Below, piece after piece: positions 9,596 through 52,280 of a stretch of 64,000 nucleotides of DNA; the first letter of the stretch is position 1, and every line of letters begins with the position of its first letter. The DNA is taken from positions 67,833,781 through 67,897,780 of the forward strand of contig NC_090397.1 in NCBI RefSeq assembly GCF_036365525.1, read 5' to 3'. Source of the DNA: Heterodontus francisci (Eukaryota). Position numbers and translations under genes: made by a program. The notes under the pieces were generated by a model that worked only from the letters and a program-made list of their open reading frames with translations, searched no databases and was not told the DNA's origin.

Positions 9596-11743
9596 GAGAT
9601 GGAAGGTGGGGGGGGGGGGGGGGGAGAGAGATGGAAGGGGGGGGGGGGAGATGGAAGGGGGGGGGGAGAGATGGAAGGGGGGGGGAGAGATGGAAGGGGG
9701 GGGAGAGATGGAAGGGGGGGGGGGGAGAGATGGAAGGGGGGGGGGAGAGATGGAAGGGGGGGGGGGAGAGATGGAAGGGGGGGGGGAGAGATGGAAGGGG
9801 GGGGGGGAGAGATGGAAGGGGGGGGGAGAGATGGAAAGGGGGGGGGAGAGATGGAAGGGGGGGGGGAGAGATGGAAGGGGGGGGGGGAGAGATGGAAGGG
9901 GGGGGGGAGAGATGGAAGGGGGGGGGGAGAGATGGAAGGGGGGGGGGGAGAGATGGAAGGGGGGGGGGGAGAGATGGAAGGGGGGGGGGGAGAGATGGAA
10001 GGGGGGGGGGAGAGATGGAAGGGGGGGGGAGAGATGGAAGGGGGGGGGAGAGATGGAAGGGGGGGGGAGAGATGGAAGGGGGGGGGGGGAGAGATGGAAG
10101 GGGGGGGGGGGAGAGATGGAAGGGGGGGGGGGAGAGATGGAAGGGGGGGGGGGAGAGATGGAAGGGGGGGGGGAGAGATGGAAGGGGGGGGGGAGAGATG
10201 GAAGGGGGGGGGGAGAGATGGAAGGGGGGGGGAGAGATGGAAGGGGGGGGGGAGAGATGGAAGGGGGGGGGGAGAGATGGAAGGGGGGGGGGAGAGATGG
10301 AAGGGGGGGGGGAGAGATGGAAGGGGGGGGGGAGAGATGGAAGGGGGGGGGGAGAGATGGAAGGGGGGGGGGAGAGATGGAAGGGGGGGGGGAGAGATGG
10401 AAGGGGGGGGGGAGAGATGGAAGGGGGGGGGAGAGATGGAAGGGGGGGGGAGAGATGGAAGGGGGGGGGGAGAGATGGAAGGGGGGGGGGAGAGATGGAA
10501 GGGGGGGGGGAGAGATGGAAGGGGGGGGGGAGAGATGGAAGGGGGGGGGGAGAGATGGAAGGGGGGGGGGAGAGATGGAAGGGGGGGGGGAGAGATGGAA
10601 GGGGGGGGGAGAGATGGAAGGGGGGGGGAGAGATGGAAGGGGGGGGGAGAGATGGAAGGGGGGGGGGAGAGATGGAAGGGGGGGGGGAGAGATGGAAGGG
10701 GGGGGGGAGAGATGGAAGGGGGGGGGGGAGAGATGGAAGGGGGGGGGGAGAGATGGAAGGGGGGGGGAGAGATGGAAGGGGGGGGGGAGAGATGGAAGGG
10801 GGGGGAGGAGAGATGGAAGGGGGGGGAGAGATGGAAGGGGGGGGAGAGATGGAAGGGGGGGGAGAGAGATGGAAGGGGGGGGGGAGAGATGGAAGGGGGG
10901 GGGGAGAGATGGAAGGGGGGGGAGAGAGATGGAAGGGGGGGGAGAGATGGAAGGGGGGGGAGAGATGGAAGGGGGGGGGGGGAGAGATGGAAGGGGGGGG
11001 GAGAGATGGAAGGGGGGGGGGGGAGAGATGGAAGGGGGGGGGGAGAGATGGAAGGGGGGGGGGAGAGATGGAAGGGGGGGGAGAGAGATGGAAGGGGGGG
11101 GGGAGAGATGGAAGGGGGGGGGGGAGAGATGGAAGGGGGGGGGGGGAGAGATGGAAGGGGGGGGAGAGAGATGGAAGGGGGGGAGAGAGATGGAAGGGGG
11201 GGGGGAGAGATGGAAGGGGGGGGGGAGAGATGGAAGGGGGGGGGGAGAGATGGAAGGGGGGGGAGAGAGATGGAAGGGGGGGGGGAGAGATGGAAGGGGG
11301 GGGGGGGAGAGATGGAAGGGGGGGGGGGAGAGATGGAAGGGGGGGGGGGAGAGATGGAAGGGGGGGGGGAGAGATGGAAGGGGGGGGAGAGATGGAAGGG
11401 GGGGGAGAGATGGAAGGGGGGGGGGAGAGATGGAAGGGGGGGGAGAGATGGAAGGGGGGGGAGAGATGGAAGGGGGGGGGGAGAGATGGAAGGGGGGGGG
11501 AGAGATGGAAGGGGGGGGGGAGAGATGGAAGGGGGGGGGGAGAGATGGAAGGGGGGGGGGAAGAGATGGAAGGGGGGGGGGGAGAGATGGAAGGGGGGGG
11601 GGAGAGATGGAAGGGGGGGGGGGAGAGATGGAAGGGGGGGGGGGAGAGATGGAAGGGGGGGGGGGAGAGATGGAAGGGGGGGGGGAGAGATGGAAGGGGG
11701 GGGGGAGAGATGGAAGGGGGGGGGAGAGATGGAAGGGGGGGGG
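9596..11743 (+). repeat. Tandem minisatellite (GAGAGATGGAA-Gn), unit about 20 bp, roughly 105-110 copies
   Basis: Directly visible. Variation is almost entirely in G-run length; no C on the plus strand. Confidence 0.99.
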
Positions 11744-18444: not shown

Positions 18445-18542
18445 CTGAGGGACCCGTATTTTCATCCGGCCACGATCTCAAGGAACTAAGCTCTGTTAAA
18501 GGATGGGATCACCATGCCAAGGTGTTTGCAGTCTGCACTGAA
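18445..18542 (+). CDS. ECHDC3: ECHDC3 coding exon 3, (A)EGPVFSSGHDLKELSSVKGWDHHAKVFAVCTE
   Basis: Translated by hand. FSSGHDL oxyanion-hole motif; 98 nt; GCAG| acceptor and |GTAAGC donor. Confidence 0.97.
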
Positions 18543-19124
18543 GTAAGCTGATCAATTTATATTTAATGTATTGAATAACAACAACAGCTTGCATTTCTAC
18601 AGTGCCATTAACGTAATAAAACGTCCCAAAGGTGCTACAGAGGTGCGATTATCAAATAAATATAACACCAAGCCACAAAAGGAGACATTGAGGTAGGTTG
18701 AAGGAGGAGACAGTGGTCGAGAGGTGTAGGGAGGTAATTTGGAGTTTAGCGCCTCGGCAATTGAAGGCACAGCCACCAGTGATGAAGTGATTAAAATCGG
18801 GAATCGCAAAGAACAGGGCCTGAAAATACAGTAATATTCTGGAATGTTTGACACAATGACGAGAACCATGAGAGTGAAGATTTTAGTGGTTTATTGATGA
18901 GATCTCAATTTGTTGTGTACCTGTCCTGCAATAAACATCATACAACATGTGCTCAACCTTTCATTGCCTTAATGAACTAACAATTGGCTTATTGGTGTAA
19001 GGCAGTGAGCAGTTGACCCCTACAGACCCCCGCAAGTGGAAGAGTAGAGTAGACAGGGTCAGGCCTAACTGTGACGCCCTCATAGTCAAATTGCCTGCTG
19101 GCATTCACTGTCTAGACGCATAAT

Positions 19125-20090
19125 TTCTTTTATTCATTCTTGGGATGTGAGCATCACCGACTAGGCCAGCATTTGTTGCCCATCCCTAAATGCCCTTGAG
19201 AAAGTGGCGATGAGCCATCTTCTTAAACTACTGCAGTCCATTTGGGGTAGGTACACCCACAGTGCTGTTAGGAAGGGAGTTCCAGGATTCTGACTCAGCG
19301 ACAGTGAAGGAACGGCGATATAGTTCCAAGTCAGAATGGTGTGAGGCTTGGAGGGGAACTTGCAGGTGGTGGTGTTCCCATGTGCCTGCTGCCCTTGTCC
19401 TAGGTCTTAGAGGTCGCGGGTTTGGCAGGTGCTGTCAAAGGAGCCTTGTTGCATTGCTGCAGTGCATCTTGAGGATCTTTTGCATCTGTGTGCCAGTGGT
19501 GGAGGGAGTGAATGTTTTAGGTGGTGAATGGGGTGCAAATCAAGCAGGCTGCTTTATCTTGGATGGTGTTGAGCTTCTTGAGTGTGGTTGGAACTGCACT
19601 TATCCAGGCGAGTGGAGAATATTCCATCACATTCCTGACTTGTGCTTTGTAGATGGTGGACAGGCTTTGGGGAATCAGGTGATGAGTTCTTTGCCACTGA
19701 ATTCCAAGACTCTGACCTGCTCTTGTAGCCACAGTTCAATTTCTGGTCAATGGTAACTTCCAGAATGTTCATGGTGGGAGACTCAGTGATGGTAATACCG
19801 TTGAATGTCCTGGGGAGATGGTTAGATTCTTGTTGGAGATGGTCATTGCCTGGGCAATTGTGTGGCACAAATGTCACTCAGTACTTAACAGCCCAAGTCT
19901 GAATGTTGTCCAGGTCTTGCTGCATATGGACACGAACTGCTTCATTATCTGAGGAGTTGCGAATGGTGCTGAACTTTGTGCGATCATCAGTGAGCATCCC
20001 CACTTCTGACTTCATGTTGGAGGGAAGGTCATTGATGAAGCAGCTGAAGATGGTTGGGCCTAGGACACTACCCGGAGGAACTCCTGCAGC
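19125..20090 (-). mobile_element. CR1/L2-group LINE 3' fragment (RT), probable partner of the preceding SINE family
   Basis: GVPPGSVLGPTIFSCFINDLP...MLTDD and STIYKAQVRNVMEYSPLAW. Same 3' tail as the SINE. Related fragments at 22545-22840, 44820-45090 and 54790-55410. Confidence 0.9.
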
Positions 20091-20230
20091 AAATGAAGAA
20101 TGGTCACGTTGGAGAGATACTAGAGGGCACCCGGTGCCTGTGGAAGTTCCCCAGGAGGAGGCAGGACATTGAGGATGGGTGAAAGCAGCTGGAAGGGGGG
20201 GCAGAAATGACATTGAATATGGAAATATTC

Positions 20231-20273
20231 CGGGGTTCCGAAGAAGGGTCACTGACCCGAAACGTTAACTCTG
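20231..20273 (+). ncRNA. Minimal type-I hammerhead ribozyme motif (Penelope-derived), best-preserved copy
   Basis: Helix I CGGGGTT/AACTCTG; core CCGAAGA; helix II GGGTC-ACT-GACCC; GAAA-CG-TT with palindromic AACGTT. Predicted cleavage after 20266. Confidence 0.7.
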
Positions 20274-20454
20274 CTTCTCTTTCCACAGATGCTGCCAGAT
20301 CTGCTGAGTGATTCCAGCATTTCTTGTTTTTATTTCAGATTTCCAGCATCCGCAGTATTTTGCTTTTATTATTATGGAAATTTCAGTAGTGGGACTGCAG
20401 TAATACTAAAAATCACCAGTTATCTTTGCTCATCATACTTTTTACAACTTGTAG

Positions 20455-20655
20455 GTTATGACCCTCCTTCAGGATATCTCAGTTCCAGTTATTGCGAAGG
20501 TCAATGGTTTGGCCACAGCTGCTGGCTGCCAGCTTGTGGCCAGTTGCGATATTGCTGTGGTGTCAGACAAGTCAAAATTTGCCACTCCAGGAGTCAACAT
20601 TGGGCTCTTCTGTTCCACACCAGCCGTTGCAGTGGGACGATCTCTTCCTCGAAAG
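20455..20655 (+). CDS. ECHDC3: ECHDC3 coding exon 4, [35 protein letters not shown]...[25 protein letters not shown]
   Basis: Enoyl-CoA hydratase signature region; 201 nt; GTAG| acceptor and |GTACGT donor. Confidence 0.98.
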
Positions 20656-27679: not shown

Positions 27680-28310
27680 CTCCGCTCAGTCCGAAATCAT
27701 GACCCCGAGCTTCCTGTTGATTGCCATTTCAACTCACCACTCTGCTCTCATGTCCACATTTCTGTCCTTGGCCTGCTGCACTGTTCCAGTGAATATCAAC
27801 ACAAGCTTGAGGAACAGGACCTCATCTTTCGATTATGCACTCTACAGCCTGCCGGACTCAACATTGAGTTCAACAATTTCAGAGCACGACTGGCCTTTTT
27901 AAAATTATTTTAAACCATGTGCCTGCCTTAAACTTGTTTTTTCATGTTGTGCTTTTGGACACAGCTGCTCATTATTCTGTCATTGACACTCTCTCTGGAC
28001 TAATGCTTTGTCTTTCACCACGAACATCAACACTTTCTTTGCCTTTATCCCATGACATCTTTGTTATTTAATCTCTCCTGCCCTCTACCCTATCACACAC
28101 CTTCCCTTTTGTTCTCTTCCCCACCAGCCCTACCTTCACTTGCTTTAAACCTAATACATTTCTAACCTTTGCCAGTTCTGATGAAAGGTCACAGACCTGA
28201 AATGTTATCTCTGCTTCTCTCTCCACAGATGCTGCCAGACCTGCTGAGTATTTCCAGCACTTTTTGTTTTTGTTTCAGATTTCCAGCATCTGCAGTATTT
28301 TGCTTTTATA
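27680..28310 (+). mobile_element. Penelope-like element 3' part: GIY-YIG C-terminus, 3' UTR and hammerhead (28174-28210)
   Basis: Translates QHKLEEQDLIFRLCTLQPAGLNIEFNNFRA, then CAGTT-CTGATGA-A-AGGTC-ACA-GACCT-GAAA-TG-TT. Confidence 0.85.
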
Positions 28311-37900: not shown

Positions 37901-38574
37901 ATGGGCACCAGGCATCCTGCAGTACCTGACCCAGTAGTCATTTATTATAGGTGGGTCCAGACGGTAGGTATCCGCTGATTATTCAACCATAACAGCCAAG
38001 CTCATTCTTTTCTCAACTTGTGTCCACACATTCCCCACCCTTGAGGCAGGGGTACAATATATTGATAGGGCTGTGTACTGTGACCAATATTTCCCATTCT
38101 CACTCTAAGACCAGTTTAGTGTACTTCCCTCACCCAGAGCCCAGATAATATCATCTAATTCAGGAGAGTCCAGGATTCAAAGTGGGACTTTCCTGACCTG
38201 CACACCCTACCTCCTCACGAGATAAACTTGATAAGCCAATGAGAGAGTAAAAGTTGTTTTTAATCACAATTAAACAGATGCCAGGTGCAGAAGGTTTGAT
38301 GTGAAAAGAGTTCTATTATGATGAATTGGGTGCTGCTTTCAACCTCTCAACTCCAGGAATTTTACATTTGATGCTGTATTGAAAGTCGCTCTTTAGATTG
38401 CAAATTCCCTGAGTGCAGTATGAACTCCCTTTCACAATGGACCTTCAATCCATCTACACCTCCATCCCACACCACCACCACCCCCCCCACCCCCCACCCC
38501 CCACCAAGGCAACCTATGATCTTTTCTACTTCTCATTGAATTGTAACCAAATTAGTTTCCATCCATCACCCTCC

Positions 38575-39679
38575 CCGTCTGACCAAACTTGATTTCACCC
38601 CGAACAACTTTTCCTTCAACTCGACTCACTTCCCCCAAATAAAAGGTGTTGTTAAGGGAACCCACATGAGACCTAGTTATAAATAAAATCAGATAGTGCT
38701 GGAAATACTCAGCAGGTCTGGCAACATCTGTGGTGAGAGAAACAGAGTTAACATTTCAGGTCGATGACCTTTCATCAGAACCAGGAAAAGTTAGAAATGT
38801 AACAGGTTTTAAACAAGTACAGAGGCAGGGAAAGGAGGGAGGGAGGGGAGAACAAAAGGGAAGGTCCGTGATAAGGTGGAAGACAGGAGAGATTGTATGG
38901 CAAAAGGGATGATGGTGCAAGGCAAAAAGAGATGCCAAGTAAAGAAACAAAAGCTGCCATCTGAAAACAAAAAAAAAACAGAGAGAGAAAGAAATGGGGG
39001 CAGAGATTATGATCTGAAATTGTTGAACTCAATATTGAGCTGGGAAAGCTATAAAGTGCCTAATTGAAAGATGAGGTGCCGTTCCTCGAGCTTGCGTTGA
39101 GATTTATGGATGAAATTTTCCAGTTTGTGGCAAAAGCAGGAAGCAGCACCAATACAGTCATCAATGTACCATATAAAGAGGTGAAGGAAGGGGCCTGAGT
39201 AGGACTGGAACAAGGAATTTTTCACATTTCCCACGAAGAAGCAGGCAGAGCTCTGATAGCAACAAATATTATTTGGAGTAAGTGAGTGGAGTTAAAGGAG
39301 AATAAAAGCAAAATACTGCAGATGCTGGAAATCTGAAATAAAAACAAAAAGTGCTGGAAATACTCAGCAGGTCTGGCAGCATCTGTGGAAAGAGAAGCAA
39401 AGTTAACTTTTCAGGTCTGTGACCTTTCATCAGAACTGGCAAAGGTTAGAAAAGAATCAGGTTCTAAGCAAGTGAAGGGGAGGGGGTGGGGGAAAGAACA
39501 AAGGGGAAGGTGTTTGATGGGGCAGAGGGTGATGAAATAACAAAGCTGTCCTGGGACAAACGCAAAGCATGTGTTAATGCTAATAGTGAAAAACAAAGCA
39601 TTAGTCCAGGGAGAGTGTTAATAGCGGAATAATGAGCAGCTACATGACTACATGAAAAGCAGGCACATGGTTAAAAAAT
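38575..39679 (-). mobile_element. Rearranged Penelope-like element fragments with two hammerheads (38743-38785 and 39401-39438)
   Basis: Plus-strand NNFSFNSTHFPQIKGV..GTHM.PSY (RT) abuts minus-strand WYIDDCIGAAS and RKLEERHLIFQLGTL. Two CTGATGA-A-AGGTC-NNN-GACCT-GAAA motifs. Confidence 0.85.
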
Positions 39680-40883
39680 TCTTCTTCTTCTTTGGCCTCC
39701 TTGTCTCAAGAGACAATGGGTAAGCGCCTGGAGGTGGTCAGTGGTGTGTGGAGCAGTGCCTGGAGTGGCTATAAAGGCCAATTCTAGAGTGACAGACTCT
39801 TCCACAGGTGCTGCAGAAAAATGTGTTTGTCGGGGCTGTTACACAGTTGGCTCGCTCCTTGTGCCTCTGTCTTTTTTCCTGCCAACTGCTAAGTCTCTTC
39901 GATTCACCACACTTTAGCCCCGCCTTTATGGCTGCCCGCCAGCTCTGGCGAACGCTGGCAACTGACTCCCACAACTTGTGATCAATGTCACAGGACTTCA
40001 TGTCGCGTTTGCAGACGTCTTTAAAGCGGAGACATGGACGGCCGGTGGGTCTGATACCAGTGGCGAGCTCGCTGTACACTGTGTCTTTGGGGATCCTGCC
40101 ATCTTCCATGCGGCTCACATGACCAAGCCATCTCAAGCGCCGCTGACTCAGTAGTGTGTATAAGCTGGGGATGTTGGCCGCCTCGAGGACCTCTGTGTTG
40201 GAGATGCGGTCCTGCCACCTGATGCCAAGGATTCTCCGGAGGCAGCGAAGATGGAATGAATTGAGACGTCGCTCTTGGCTGACATACGTTGACCAGGCCT
40301 TGCTGCCATAGAGCAAGGTACTGAGGACACAGGCCTGATACACTCGGACTTTTGTGTTCCGTGTCAGTGCGCCATTTTCCCACACTCTCTTGGCCAGTCT
40401 GGACATAACAGTAGAAGCCTTTCACATGCGCTTGTTCATTTCTGCATCTAGAGACAGGTTACTGGTGATAGTTGAGCCTAGGTAGCTGAATTCTTGAACC
40501 ACTTCCAGAGCGTGGTCGCCAATATTGATGGATGGAGCATTTCTGACGTCCTGCCCCATGATGTTTGTTTTCTTGAGGCTGATGGTTAGGCCAAATTCAT
40601 TGCAGGCAGCCGCAAACCTGTCGATGAGACTCTGCAGGCACTCTTCAGTGTGAGATGTTAATGCAGCATCGTCAGCAAAGAGGAGTTCCCTGATGAGGAC
40701 TTTCCGTACTTTGGACTTCGCTCTTAGACGGGCAAGGTTGAACAACCTGCCCCCTGATCTTGTGTGGAGGAAGATTCCTTCTTCAGAGGACTTGAACGCA
40801 TGTGAGAGCAGCAGGGAGAAGAAAATCCCAAAAAGTGTGGGTGCGAGAACACAGCCCTGTTTCACGCCACTCAGGATAGGAAA
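39680..40883 (-). mobile_element. Young 5'-truncated RTE-clade LINE with 11-bp TSD
   Basis: GVKQGCVLAPTLF, LLFADDAAL, RLRWLGHV.RM and CHSRIGLYSH motifs; (GAA)n tail; TSD GGTTAAAAAAT at 39669-39679 and 40884-40894. Confidence 0.95.
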
Positions 40884-41210
40884 GGTTAAAAAATAATATA
40901 TTAAAAAAAGGCCAGTCACGCTCTGAAGTTATTGAACTCAATGTTCAGTCTGAAAGGCTGTAGAGTGCCTAATAGAAAGATCAGGTGCTGCTCCTCGAGC
41001 TTGCGTTGATGTTCACTGGTACACATAGAGTTAAAGGAGAAGTTGTTCAATGTGAGAACAAGTTTAACCAGGCTGAGGAAGGTGGTGATGGATAGAACTG
41101 GTTGGGCCTTGGTCCAAGGAAGAAACAAAGAGCCCTCAGATCGTCCTGGTGGGGAATAGAACAGTAGAGAGATTGGACGTCCATGGTGAAAAGGAGATGG
41201 TTAAGCCGGA
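40884..41210 (-). mobile_element. Continuation of the Penelope-like element interrupted by the RTE
   Basis: LVKLVLTLNNFSFNS joined to QRKLEEQHLIFLLGTLQPFRLNIEFNNFRA*, implying an internal deletion. Confidence 0.85.
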
Positions 41211-41329
41211 AAACTGTTATAAACAGTTAAAAACAATGAGGCCTAGCTCGGCTTATTTTTTGTAAGATACATTGTTTGTTCCGGTCTTACTCAGGTCCCC
41301 TCCCTGACCTCTTCAGATTCACTAAAATG

Positions 41330-49854: not shown

Positions 49855-50790
49855 AGATAGAGTCATAGAGTCGTACAGCACAGAAACAGGCCCTTCGGCC
49901 CACCGTGTCCATGCCGACCGTAATGCCTATCTATACTAATCCCACCTGCCTGCATTAATTCCATATCCCTCTATGCATTGTTCATTCAAGTACCTGTCCA
50001 GATGCCTCTTAAATGTCGCTACTGTTCCTGCCTCCACCACCTCCTCAGGCAGCTCATTCCAGATACCCACTATTCTTTGTGTGAAAAATGTACCCCTTTG
50101 ATCCCCTTTAAACCTCCTCCCTCTCACCTTAAATCTATGCCCTCTAGTTTTAGTCACCCCTACCATGGGAAACAGACTCTGGCTATCTACCCTATATATG
50201 CCTCTCATAATTTTATATACCACTATCATGTCCCCTCTCAGCCTCCTTTGCTCCAGGGAAAACAGGCCCAGCCTATCCAATCTCTCTTTATAACTCAAGC
50301 CCTCCATACCAGGCAACATCCTTGTGAATCTTTTCAGCACCCTCTCTAGCTTAATCACATCTTTCCTGTACTGCAGTGACCAGAACTGCACACAGTACTC
50401 CAAATGCAGCCTAACAAACGTTATGTACAACTGTAACATGACGTCCCAACTCTTACTCAATGCCTCGGCCAATGAAGGCAAGCATGCCATACGCCTTCTT
50501 CACCACCCTGTCTAACTGTGTTGCCACTTTCAGGGAACTATGTACTTGCACCCCAAGGTCTCTCTGCTCAACAACACTCCCCAGGGCCCTGCCATTCACT
50601 GTATATGTCCTGCTCTGGTTTAACTTCCCAAAATGCATCACTTCACACTTGTCTGCATTAAATTCCATTTGCCAATCCCTTGCCCACTTTCCCAGTTGAT
50701 CTATATTCTGTTGTAACCTTAGACAACCTTCTTCACTGTCCACTATCCCCCCAGTTTTGGTGTAATCTGCAAACCTACTAATCATGCCCC
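49855..50790 (-). mobile_element. CR1 LINE 3' fragment (HER1-like) sharing its tail with the V-SINE
   Basis: ISRFADYTK, WQMEFNADKCEVMHFG and HLEYCVQFWS motifs; tail GGTGGGCCGAAGGGCCTGTTTCTGTGCTGTA. Confidence 0.95.
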
Positions 50791-50994
50791 TTACATCTCT
50801 ATCCAGCCTTAACCTTGCTACGTTAAACCATTTTATTATGTAGAGTGGTGAAATGGAAGAACAGGAAGATTCTAATAGTAATGAACCTCTCCATCTTCCC
50901 TTACATAGCTGAAACTATTCTACTACAACCACAAAATCTTAAATAGCAAAATGTCCCAAGGCACTGCACAGTTCAAAGTTGGATTTGAGGAAAA

Positions 50995-51829: not shown

Positions 51830-52280
51830 TGGGAGTGTGGGAGGGAGAGAGTGGGGGTGGGAGTGAGGGAGAGAGTGAGGGTGGGAGTGAGGGTGGGAGT
51901 GAGGGTGGGAGTGAGGGAGCGAGTGAGGGAGCGAGTGAAGGAGAGTGTGAGGGAGAGAGTGGGGGTGGGAGTGAGGGAGCGAGTGAGGGAGCGAGTGGAG
52001 GTGGGAGTAAGGGAGAGAGTGAGGGAGAGTGTGAGGGTGGGAGTGAGGGTGGGAGTGAGGGAGCGAGTGGAGGTGGGAGTAAGGGAGAGAGTGGGGGTGG
52101 GAGTGAGGGAGAGAGTGAGGGAGAGTGTGAGGGTGGGAGTGAGGGTGGGAGCGAGTGAAGGAGCGAGTGAAGGAGCGAGTGAGGGAGCGAGTGGAGGTGG
52201 GAGTAAGGGAGAGAGTGGGGATGGGAGTGGAGGTGGGAGTGAGGGAGAGAGTGGGGGTGGGAGTATGAGTGAAGGGAGTA
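51830..52280 (+). repeat. Purine-rich compound minisatellite (GAGTGAGGGTGG / GAGTGAGGGAGA 12-mers)
   Basis: Directly visible 6/12-bp periodicity. Confidence 0.95.

What the first reader, a model, noticed from the sequence alone, without database searches (positions are those of the whole stretch)
20231..20273. Intact-looking minimal hammerhead ribozyme, sense to ECHDC3, about 190 nt upstream of coding exon 4
Seen: a 7-bp helix I (CGGGGTT/AACTCTG, two G-U pairs), core CCGAAGA (U4-to-C variant), perfect helix II and GAAA-CG-U-U. It is the only copy here with both GAAA and the palindromic AACGTT intact. Established: Penelope-like elements carry minimal type-I hammerheads lacking a stable helix III, which are thought to cleave as dimers through that palindrome. 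Inference: a Penelope transcript or a second copy could complete helix III in trans and cut ECHDC3 pre-mRNA near the branch region. That would couple retroelement expression to host gene output.
Basis: partly seen in the sequence, partly recalled or inferred. Interest (0 to 1): 0.7.

Follow-up and report, generated by a model that had tools for sequence, protein, structure and literature searches.

The report
Retrotransposon scrap carrying a weak hammerhead
The ribozyme-like motif in an ECHDC3 intron is the front end of a short Penelope-type retrotransposon insertion whose motif has over 28,000 exact copies in this genome, and it is likely a passive passenger rather than a switch for the gene.

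Summary
It is the 5' end of a 136-bp insertion (20235-20370) with a 9-bp target-site duplication, 97.8% identical to the end of a 3,290-bp Penelope-like element with an open RT/GIY-YIG frame. The exact 35-mer occurs 28,152 times in the genome. The U4-to-C core is the young family's master state, not a feature of this locus; an older subfamily has the canonical core. Four of the seven helix I pairs come from insertion filler, and helix I is predicted not to form in intron context. The double-hammerhead dimer is predicted to be unfavourable. Spliced ECHDC3 contigs join exons 3 and 4. Regulation of ECHDC3 by cleavage in trans is unlikely (about 3-4%). One side result: 29 of 100 copies begin in a 5-nt window at the hammerhead's 5' edge and 0 of 100 at its cut site, which suggests uncut RNA templates. 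Ordinary; low interest.

The parts
20218..20226 (+). 5' copy of the 9-bp target-site duplication (TATGGAAAT)
   Evidence: same 9-mer at 20373-20381
20227..20234 (+).
   Evidence: family has different letters at 20230-20234; similar short fillers at other 5' junctions. The first 3 nt also match the family in register, so the exact boundary is uncertain.
20235..20370 (+). 136-bp 5'-truncated end (pLTR piece plus tail) of a Penelope-like retroelement
   Evidence: 97.8% identical to bases 1-136 of the 3,290-bp tandem unit in L031/L032
20235..20270 (+). minimal type-I hammerhead motif of the element: helix I strands GTT and AAC(T), core CCGAAGA (U4C), extra A, 5-bp helix II, GAAA-CG-U-U
   Evidence: 28,152 exact copies of 20235-20269
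20261..20266 (+). AACGTT palindrome (would give a 4-bp intermolecular helix III); predicted cut after U17 at 20266
   Evidence: sequence; dimer model; numbering from PMC4209133
20191..20205 (+). purine-rich host flank predicted to capture the 3' strand of helix I (pairs with about 20270-20285)
   Evidence: 20271 pairs with 20204 at probability 0.92-1.0 in folds of 120 nt or more
20265..20288 (+). cryptic 3' splice-site-like stretch brought by the element (TTAAC, pyrimidine tract, CAG)
   Evidence: branch-like A at 20268, 80% pyrimidine in the 20 nt before the CAG ending at 20288; no use seen in the listed pieces or joints
20373..20381 (+). 3' copy of the target-site duplication
18543..20454 (+). 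ECHDC3 intron 3, which hosts the insertion (GT...AG)
   Evidence: contigs of X5 and X6 join 18542 to 20455
20455..20655 (+). ECHDC3 coding exon 4
   Evidence: five exons give an open 314-aa frame

Best explanation
The motif is the 5' end of a 136-bp insertion of a young, very abundant Penelope-like retroelement in ECHDC3 intron 3, and it likely does not cut or regulate the ECHDC3 transcript. Shown: the insertion, its target-site duplication, its parent element, the copy numbers, and that U4C is the family's master state. Inferred mechanism: the element's GIY-YIG endonuclease nicked AT-rich DNA; its RT started at the distal of two preferred sites in the tail, copied about 135 nt of uncut RNA through the hammerhead, and stopped at the hammerhead's 5' edge, where nearly half of the copies that reach that point stop; joining then added an 8-nt filler. 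The hammerhead is inherited cargo of the element's terminal repeat. In the intron it is predicted to lack helix III, to lose helix I to a flanking purine tract and to carry a weakening core change, and it is removed with the intron.
For: Parent: 3,290-bp tandem units 100% identical, with an open 915-aa frame. Pfam RVT_1 E 6e-6 and GIY-YIG E 3e-4, both below their curated cut-offs. Copy 97.8% identical to the parent, with a 9-bp TSD. Exact 35-mer: 14,207 + and 13,945 - copies, control 0. Loose intact motif: 43,642 with CCGA and 24,278 with CTGA, about one per 89 kb, so about 0.06 sense copies are expected in a gene of this size. CCGA 28,152 against CTGA 1,298 and CCAA 1,161 is near-symmetric CpG decay from a CCGA master. 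TSDs of 7 bp or more in 24 of 33 non-inverted short copies, against a shuffled mean of 0.4 (the control searched 30 nt upstream and the test 60 nt; 21 of 33 lie within 15 nt of the core). Two preferred 3' ends about 35-40 nt apart match the PLE tail and the two RT start sites in PMC11167929. 0 of 100 tail-anchored and 0 of 30 ORF-start copies begin at the cut site. Double hammerhead is +3.4 to +5.8 kcal/mol against monomer ensembles. Exon 3-4 junction present in contigs of X5 and X6.
Against: No cleavage assay was possible. The anole Poseidon hammerhead cuts when the element's protein is added (PMC11167929), so folding energies of bare RNA may understate activity. U4C is reported to leave enough activity in vivo for a viroid (PMC3088659). 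The family keeps helix II with a double-sided change between subfamilies (A-U in 29 motif copies, G-C in 114, G-U in 33, A-C in 2, other rows 4, of 182), so the motif has been under selection in the element. Contigs drop rare forms and cannot show RNA ends, and X5 and X6 come from one sample and are RNA only by guess. The orthologous site in other species could not be read.
Confidence: 0.87

Rival explanations
1. One reading: a Penelope transcript or second copy pairs through AACGTT, completes a double hammerhead and cuts ECHDC3 pre-mRNA, tying element expression to gene output. The strongest form has the element's own protein folding the ribozyme.
For: Motif intact and sense to the gene. Potential partners are abundant and intact parent elements exist. 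Protein-assisted cleavage is reported for the anole Poseidon hammerhead (PMC11167929). Low multimer activity is reported for a Schistosoma minimal hammerhead (PMC4209133).
Against: With an intact-element partner, the core that cuts ECHDC3 RNA is held by only 4 bp of helix I plus 4 bp of helix III. That dimer is +4.6 kcal/mol against monomers and 11 kcal/mol above a duplex formed through the helix II strands. The substrate arm is predicted to be buried by the flank. Most partners of the young family carry U4C. No genomic footprint of cut RNA, and no RNA-seq ends at the site in anole. Slow intronic cuts are reported still to splice. Thousands of copies must lie in the same kind of position, so nothing singles out ECHDC3.
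Confidence: 0.04
2. The insertion affects ECHDC3 slightly, through splicing rather than cleavage: it adds acceptor-like sites (ending 20288, 20338, 20346) upstream of exon 4 that could be used at low frequency.
For: TTAAC with A at 20268, an 80% pyrimidine tract and CAG at 20288; two more CAG sites with 75% pyrimidine. PLE terminal repeats carry real introns in other species (PMC2377424).
Against: The listed ECHDC3 contigs use only the normal acceptor at 20455. No splice-site scoring was available. The same sites are in every copy of the family.
Confidence: 0.06
3. The copy self-cleaves as a monomer at a meaningful rate because its filler-extended 7-bp helix I stabilises it.
For: Helix I probability 0.84-1.0 when only 70 nt are folded.
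Against: C15.2-G16.2 has no loop, so helix III cannot close within one strand. A single minimal PLE hammerhead showed no detectable cleavage (PMC4209133). Helix I is lost in longer context. The same 7-bp potential occurs in 1,287 copies as a by-product of junction formation.
Confidence: 0.03

Closest known systems
Minimal type-I hammerheads (min-HHR) of metazoan Penelope-like elements (Cervera and de la Pena 2014, PMC4209133)
   Same: No helix III loop, palindromic 15.2-16.2, extra nucleotide between 9 and 10.1, G10.1-C11.1, short 4-bp family helix I, location in the terminal repeat, many solo and head-to-head copies.
   Different: The young family's core is CCGA (U4C). In the supplement file searched, both CCGA hits lay outside cores (file 1 not searched). 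The exact-copy number (28,152) exceeds the about 4,000 and 9,000 reported there for coelacanth and Xenopus.
Poseidon element of the green anole (Frangieh et al. 2024, PMC11167929)
   Same: Two 3' ends a tail apart, AT-rich targets, tandem arrays, and no sign that cut RNA is the template.
   Different: There the ORF starts inside the hammerhead; here the ATG is about 170 nt downstream of the core, and a CX4CX2C linker before the endonuclease points to the Neptune clade.
Neptune clade of EN+ Penelope-like elements (as described in PMC8557442)
   Same: [quoted passage not shown]
   Different: Clade assigned by motif only; no tree was built.
Conserved intronic hammerheads of amniotes (RECK and others; PMC6155905 passages)
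   Same: Type-I hammerhead motif in an intron of a protein-coding gene.
   Different: Those are described as conserved across birds and mammals with tertiary contacts; this is a young repeat copy with a minimal, variant core and no evidence of conservation.
Non-LTR retrozymes (bioRxiv 10.64898/2026.07.22.740005 passages)
   Same: Short non-autonomous hammerhead-bearing sequences derived from PLE terminal repeats; reported in one chondrichthyan genome.
   Different: Retrozymes are tandem arrays with two or more hammerheads; this is a solo dispersed copy with a TSD.

Membership tests
PLE minimal hammerhead (min-HHR) | Core boxes CUGANGA and GAAA with U16.1-H17 | tested here: inconclusive
   GAAA, U16.1 and U17 present; first box is CCGAAGA (U4C), fixed in the young family; canonical CTGA in 91 of 100 listed older-subfamily motifs
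PLE minimal hammerhead (min-HHR) | Helix II with G10.1-C11.1 and an extra base after position 9 | tested here: met
   5-bp helix, probability 0.97-1.0 in all contexts; A-U versus G-C closing pair between subfamilies
PLE minimal hammerhead (min-HHR) | Short helix I (4-5 bp) | tested here: met
   family AGTT/AACT, 4 bp; in this copy 3 element pairs plus 4 filler pairs, lost in intron context
PLE minimal hammerhead (min-HHR) | No helix III loop; palindromic 15.2-16.2 | tested here: met
   GAAA-CG-U-U; CGTT in 165 of 182 motif copies in the fetched loci (most loci were picked by patterns holding these letters)
PLE minimal hammerhead (min-HHR) | Lies in the terminal repeat of a PLE | tested here: met
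   same motif at each junction of the 3,290-bp tandem units
Active hammerhead ribozyme | Site-specific self-cleavage | not testable with these tools
   no assay; indirect signs negative: 0 of 100 and 0 of 30 copies start at the cut site, dimer unfavourable
EN+ Penelope-like element | Single ORF with RT and C-terminal GIY-YIG | tested here: met
   parent 915-aa frame; RVT_1 E 6e-6, GIY-YIG E 3e-4, both under Pfam cut-offs; YIDD and YCIRC...LYIGET motifs
EN+ Penelope-like element | Tandem or partial-tandem structure, inverted 5'-truncated neighbours, tail, short TSD | tested here: met
   tandem array; 20 of 53 short copies with inverted junctions, two 3' ends, TSDs in 24 of 33
Neptune clade | CX2-5CxxC linker between RT and endonuclease | tested here: met
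   CNRRRCNTC in the parent frame; definition from PMC8557442 passages
Neptune clade | Placement in RT phylogeny | not tested
   no reference proteins were fetched
Domesticated intronic hammerhead | Conserved at the orthologous site across species | tested here: inconclusive
   other species' contigs did not bridge the flanks; 97.8% identity to an intact element and a clean TSD argue for a recent origin
Non-LTR retrozyme | Tandem units with at least two hammerheads | tested here: not met
   solo copy; nearest family copy is 5.7 kb away and has a broken GAAA box

The most novel reading that the evidence does not exclude
When this very abundant element is expressed, its RT-endonuclease protein (or its RNA) switches on the dormant hammerheads in thousands of host introns, ECHDC3 among them, so that a burst of retroelement activity cuts host pre-mRNAs genome-wide; the U4C change, fixed as the family expanded, would be a damping mutation that limits this cost.
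Probability: 0.04. Interest if true: 0.7.

Novelty: new member of a known kind. Interest (0 to 1): 0.2.

Why it matters
As a feature of ECHDC3 it matters little: it is one of tens of thousands of equivalent copies. Two family-level facts have modest value for the open question of what PLE hammerheads do. First, a family that expanded to more than 28,000 near-identical copies did so with a U4C core, while an older subfamily had the canonical core, which suggests that fast cleavage is not needed for retrotransposition. Second, short copies begin at the hammerhead's 5' edge and not at its cut site, a genomic sign that the template RNA is uncut and has an end or barrier there. With intact parents in the genome, both are directly testable in the purified-protein assay of PMC11167929. 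Eight literature searches listed no paper on this family, and the passages read did not describe this junction hotspot; the library lacks most subscription journals and no repeat database was searched.

Tried and rejected
Rfam: 0 matches at gathering score over the window and 6 weak unrelated matches near the motif; uninformative, since minimal hammerheads may not be modelled. Shuffle test of the 43-, 56- and 131-nt folds: not significant. Empty orthologous site in other species: runs X9, X12, X16 and X17 hold the family, but no listed piece bridged the flanks, so no verdict. The run search listed no holder on record as RNA, and no raw RNA reads, so RNA ends could not be mapped. Earlier findings of the scan: nothing. 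U4C as a chance mutation of this copy: rejected. 7-bp helix I as a selected feature: rejected; it is filler and 1,287 copies have the same potential. Short copies as spliced or exon-capturing products of the conserved YAG just before the core: not supported, because TSDs abut the junction in 21 of 33 non-inverted copies and upstream sequences differ between copies. The hotspot as a simple transcription start of all element RNA: weakened, because only 2 of 30 ORF-start copies begin there and 14 run past it (one search used 15 by a miscount, corrected, p 0.013). Supplement search of PMC11167929 found none of four terms; its figures were not seen. A planned literature search on the NUU triplet was not completed, so the weakness of a GUU cut site is recalled only and is not used as evidence.

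Full report
1. Observation. The motif is present as described at 20231-20273: helix I strands CGGGGTT and AACTCTG, core CCGAAGA, one extra A, a 5-bp helix II with a 3-nt loop, GAAA-CG-U-U, and a predicted cut after 20266. Folded alone it gives helices I and II but no better energy than shuffles (z -1.18, 25 of 200). Rfam gave 0 matches at gathering score and no hammerhead among 6 weak matches. The downstream exon is ECHDC3 (best PDB hit human ECHDC3, E 8e-28). Contigs of runs X5 and X6 (one sample; RNA by guess) join five exons at GT-AG junctions into an open 314-aa frame; the motif lies sense in intron 3 (18543-20454), 188 nt before exon 4. The nearest branch-like adenosines for exon 4 are at 20432 and 20444, so the cut is about 165-180 nt from the branch region. 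Of 9 family copies in the window, this is the only one with GAAA and AACGTT intact.

2. What it is. The 35 bases 20235-20269 occur exactly 28,152 times in the 6.0-Gb genome, evenly on both strands, with a control count of 0. Following long copies upstream led to a reverse-transcriptase and GIY-YIG frame and to a tandem array whose 3,290-bp units are 100% identical and carry an open 915-aa frame. Pfam gives RVT_1 at E 6e-6 and GIY-YIG at E 3e-4, both under their cut-offs. A CX4CX2C linker suggests the Neptune clade (definition from passages of PMC8557442); no tree was built. The repeats look like those of cartilaginous fishes; that is recalled, not tested. Window 20235-20370 matches the end of the unit at 97.8% over 136 bp. 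It is flanked by a 9-bp duplication (20218-20226 and 20373-20381) with 8 filler bases before the element. So four of the seven helix I pairs are filler; the family's helix I is 4 bp. A pattern for the same 7-bp potential matches 1,287 copies, about 11% of the 12,028 exact copies that lack the family's three upstream letters (the patterns differ slightly in length). Loose intact motifs number 43,642 with CCGA and 24,278 with CTGA, which predicts 0.72 per 64 kb and 0.06 sense copies in a gene of this size.

3. The core variant. In the young 35-mer, CCGA is found 28,152 times, CTGA 1,298 times and CCAA 1,161 times, close to the symmetric pattern of CpG decay from a CCGA master. An older subfamily with an A-U pair closing helix II has 5,651 matches, and 91 of the first 100 listed are CTGA, 3 CCGA, 2 CCAA and 4 other. 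U4C therefore arose in the lineage that expanded most recently. Passages of PMC3088659 state that U4C considerably lowers activity in vitro yet allows viroid infectivity. The A-U to G-C change at the base of helix II between subfamilies indicates that the fold was selected in the element at some time.

4. Could it cut ECHDC3? In longer folds, helix II persists (0.97-1.0) but helix I falls from 0.84-1.0 (70 nt) to 0.08 or less (120 nt) and 0 (220 and 360 nt), because a purine tract at 20191-20205, transcribed first, takes the 3' strand. In a double hammerhead helix I is exchanged between the molecules, so the core that cuts ECHDC3 RNA would be the partner's, held by 4 bp of helix I and 4 bp of helix III. 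That structure is 3.4, 4.6 and 5.8 kcal/mol above the summed monomer ensembles for copy-copy, copy-parent and parent-parent pairs, and about 11 kcal/mol above a duplex through the helix II strands. These are bare-RNA predictions. PMC4209133 (parts 1-2 of 4 read) reports no cleavage by a single minimal hammerhead and low cleavage by dimers and trimers. Passages of PMC2995048 report, citing others, that introns cut by a slow hammerhead still splice while a fast ribozyme blocks splicing. Spliced ECHDC3 contigs exist, but contigs drop rare forms and cannot show RNA ends. The orthologous site in other species could not be read.

5. Junction map. Among the first 100 copies of an exact tail 31-mer (51,261 in the genome), 38 have their 5' junction within -10 to +6 of the core's first C, 29 of them in five positions (-4 to 0); 37 run 200 nt or more upstream; 8 stop between -199 and -11; 12 stop between +7 and +24; 5 stop at +33 to +40; none starts at the cut site, +29. 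The per-base rate in the five positions is about 137 times that further upstream. The 100 include 13 close head-to-head pairs and one apparent duplicate, so independent events are fewer. In 30 copies with an older-type tail, 12 by eye start at the same edge and none at the cut site. Of 30 copies that include the ORF start, 2 begin at the edge, 14 run past it, 14 stop earlier and none begins at the cut site (stop-versus-pass p 0.013). Of 53 short copies, 20 have inverted junctions, and 24 of the other 33 have a TSD of 7 bp or more. The 3' ends fall in two groups about 35-40 nt apart, as for the PLE tail. The window copy is a typical member of this class. The cause of the hotspot is open: an RNA 5' end, a barrier to RT at the hammerhead, or fold-back of the new DNA. 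A YAG sits just before the core in young and old subfamilies, and PMC4209133 places an intron end at the 5' end of helix I in the Drosophila element; head-to-head palindromes are discussed as self-priming in passages of PMC3846280.

6. Mechanism, shown and inferred. Shown: insertion, duplication, filler, parent, copy numbers, master state of U4C, junction map, and a spliced host transcript. Inferred: target-primed insertion from the distal tail site on uncut RNA with a stop at the hammerhead edge; inactivity of the motif in the intron; no regulatory role. Confidence 0.87. Rivals: minor effects through cryptic acceptors (0.06), cleavage in trans or with protein help (0.04), monomer cleavage (0.03).

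7. Comparison and novelty. It has the architecture of the known minimal hammerheads of metazoan Penelope-like elements and belongs to such an element; the catalytic test could not be run and one core base departs from consensus. It is not a tandem retrozyme (passages of bioRxiv 10.64898/2026.07.22.740005; supplements not seen) and shows none of the conservation described for amniote intronic hammerheads (passages of PMC6155905). Passages of PMC2377424 were read for promoter and intron position. Eight searches listed no paper on this family. Supplement file 1 of PMC4209133 was not searchable and may hold related alignments. Verdict: new member of a known kind; interest 0.2.

Noticed in passing
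G000:C1 first 11.8 Mb (loci L064-L136 and others): 29 of 100 tail-anchored copies begin within five bases at the hammerhead's 5' edge and none at its cut site; many carry short fold-back or repeated pieces at the junction. Cause unexplained.
   Followed up: partly
L031/L032 (G000:C1:23218500-23238000, minus strand): Tandem array of a 3,290-bp Penelope-like unit, 100% identical between units, one with an open 915-aa frame; 1,802 exact copies of the ORF-start 35-mer genome-wide, so the family is likely very recent or active.
   Followed up: partly
genome-wide motif counts: The young family expanded with a U4C core and a G-C closing pair in helix II; an older subfamily has the canonical core and an A-U pair.
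   Followed up: yes
L033:~330-470 (G000:C1:8645528, minus strand): A copy in which the hammerhead's 5' edge is joined directly to an internal ORF position, consistent with a template jump.
   Followed up: no
L031/L032 unit, around the hammerhead and before the ATG: Several acceptor-like sites in the element: just before the core, about 50 and 100 nt after it, and right before the ATG; which intron, if any, is used is unknown.
   Followed up: no
window 27680-28309 (+) and 39301-39609 (-), 38425-41216: Longer pieces of older members of the same family, including endonuclease and RT fragments at 72-88% identity to the intact unit.
   Followed up: no
window 9617-11743: 2.1-kb array of a 20-bp G-rich unit (106 copies, 95% matches, extreme GC skew) about 1.4 kb upstream of the first ECHDC3 exon seen.
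   Followed up: no
window 51841-52264: Purine-rich 12-bp tandem array, 35 copies.
   Followed up: no
window 39738-40928 (-), 49936-50914 (-), 19878-20130 (-): Frames resembling LINE reverse-transcriptase ends (family names recalled, not tested); one such fragment lies about 100 bp upstream of the insertion in intron 3.
   Followed up: no
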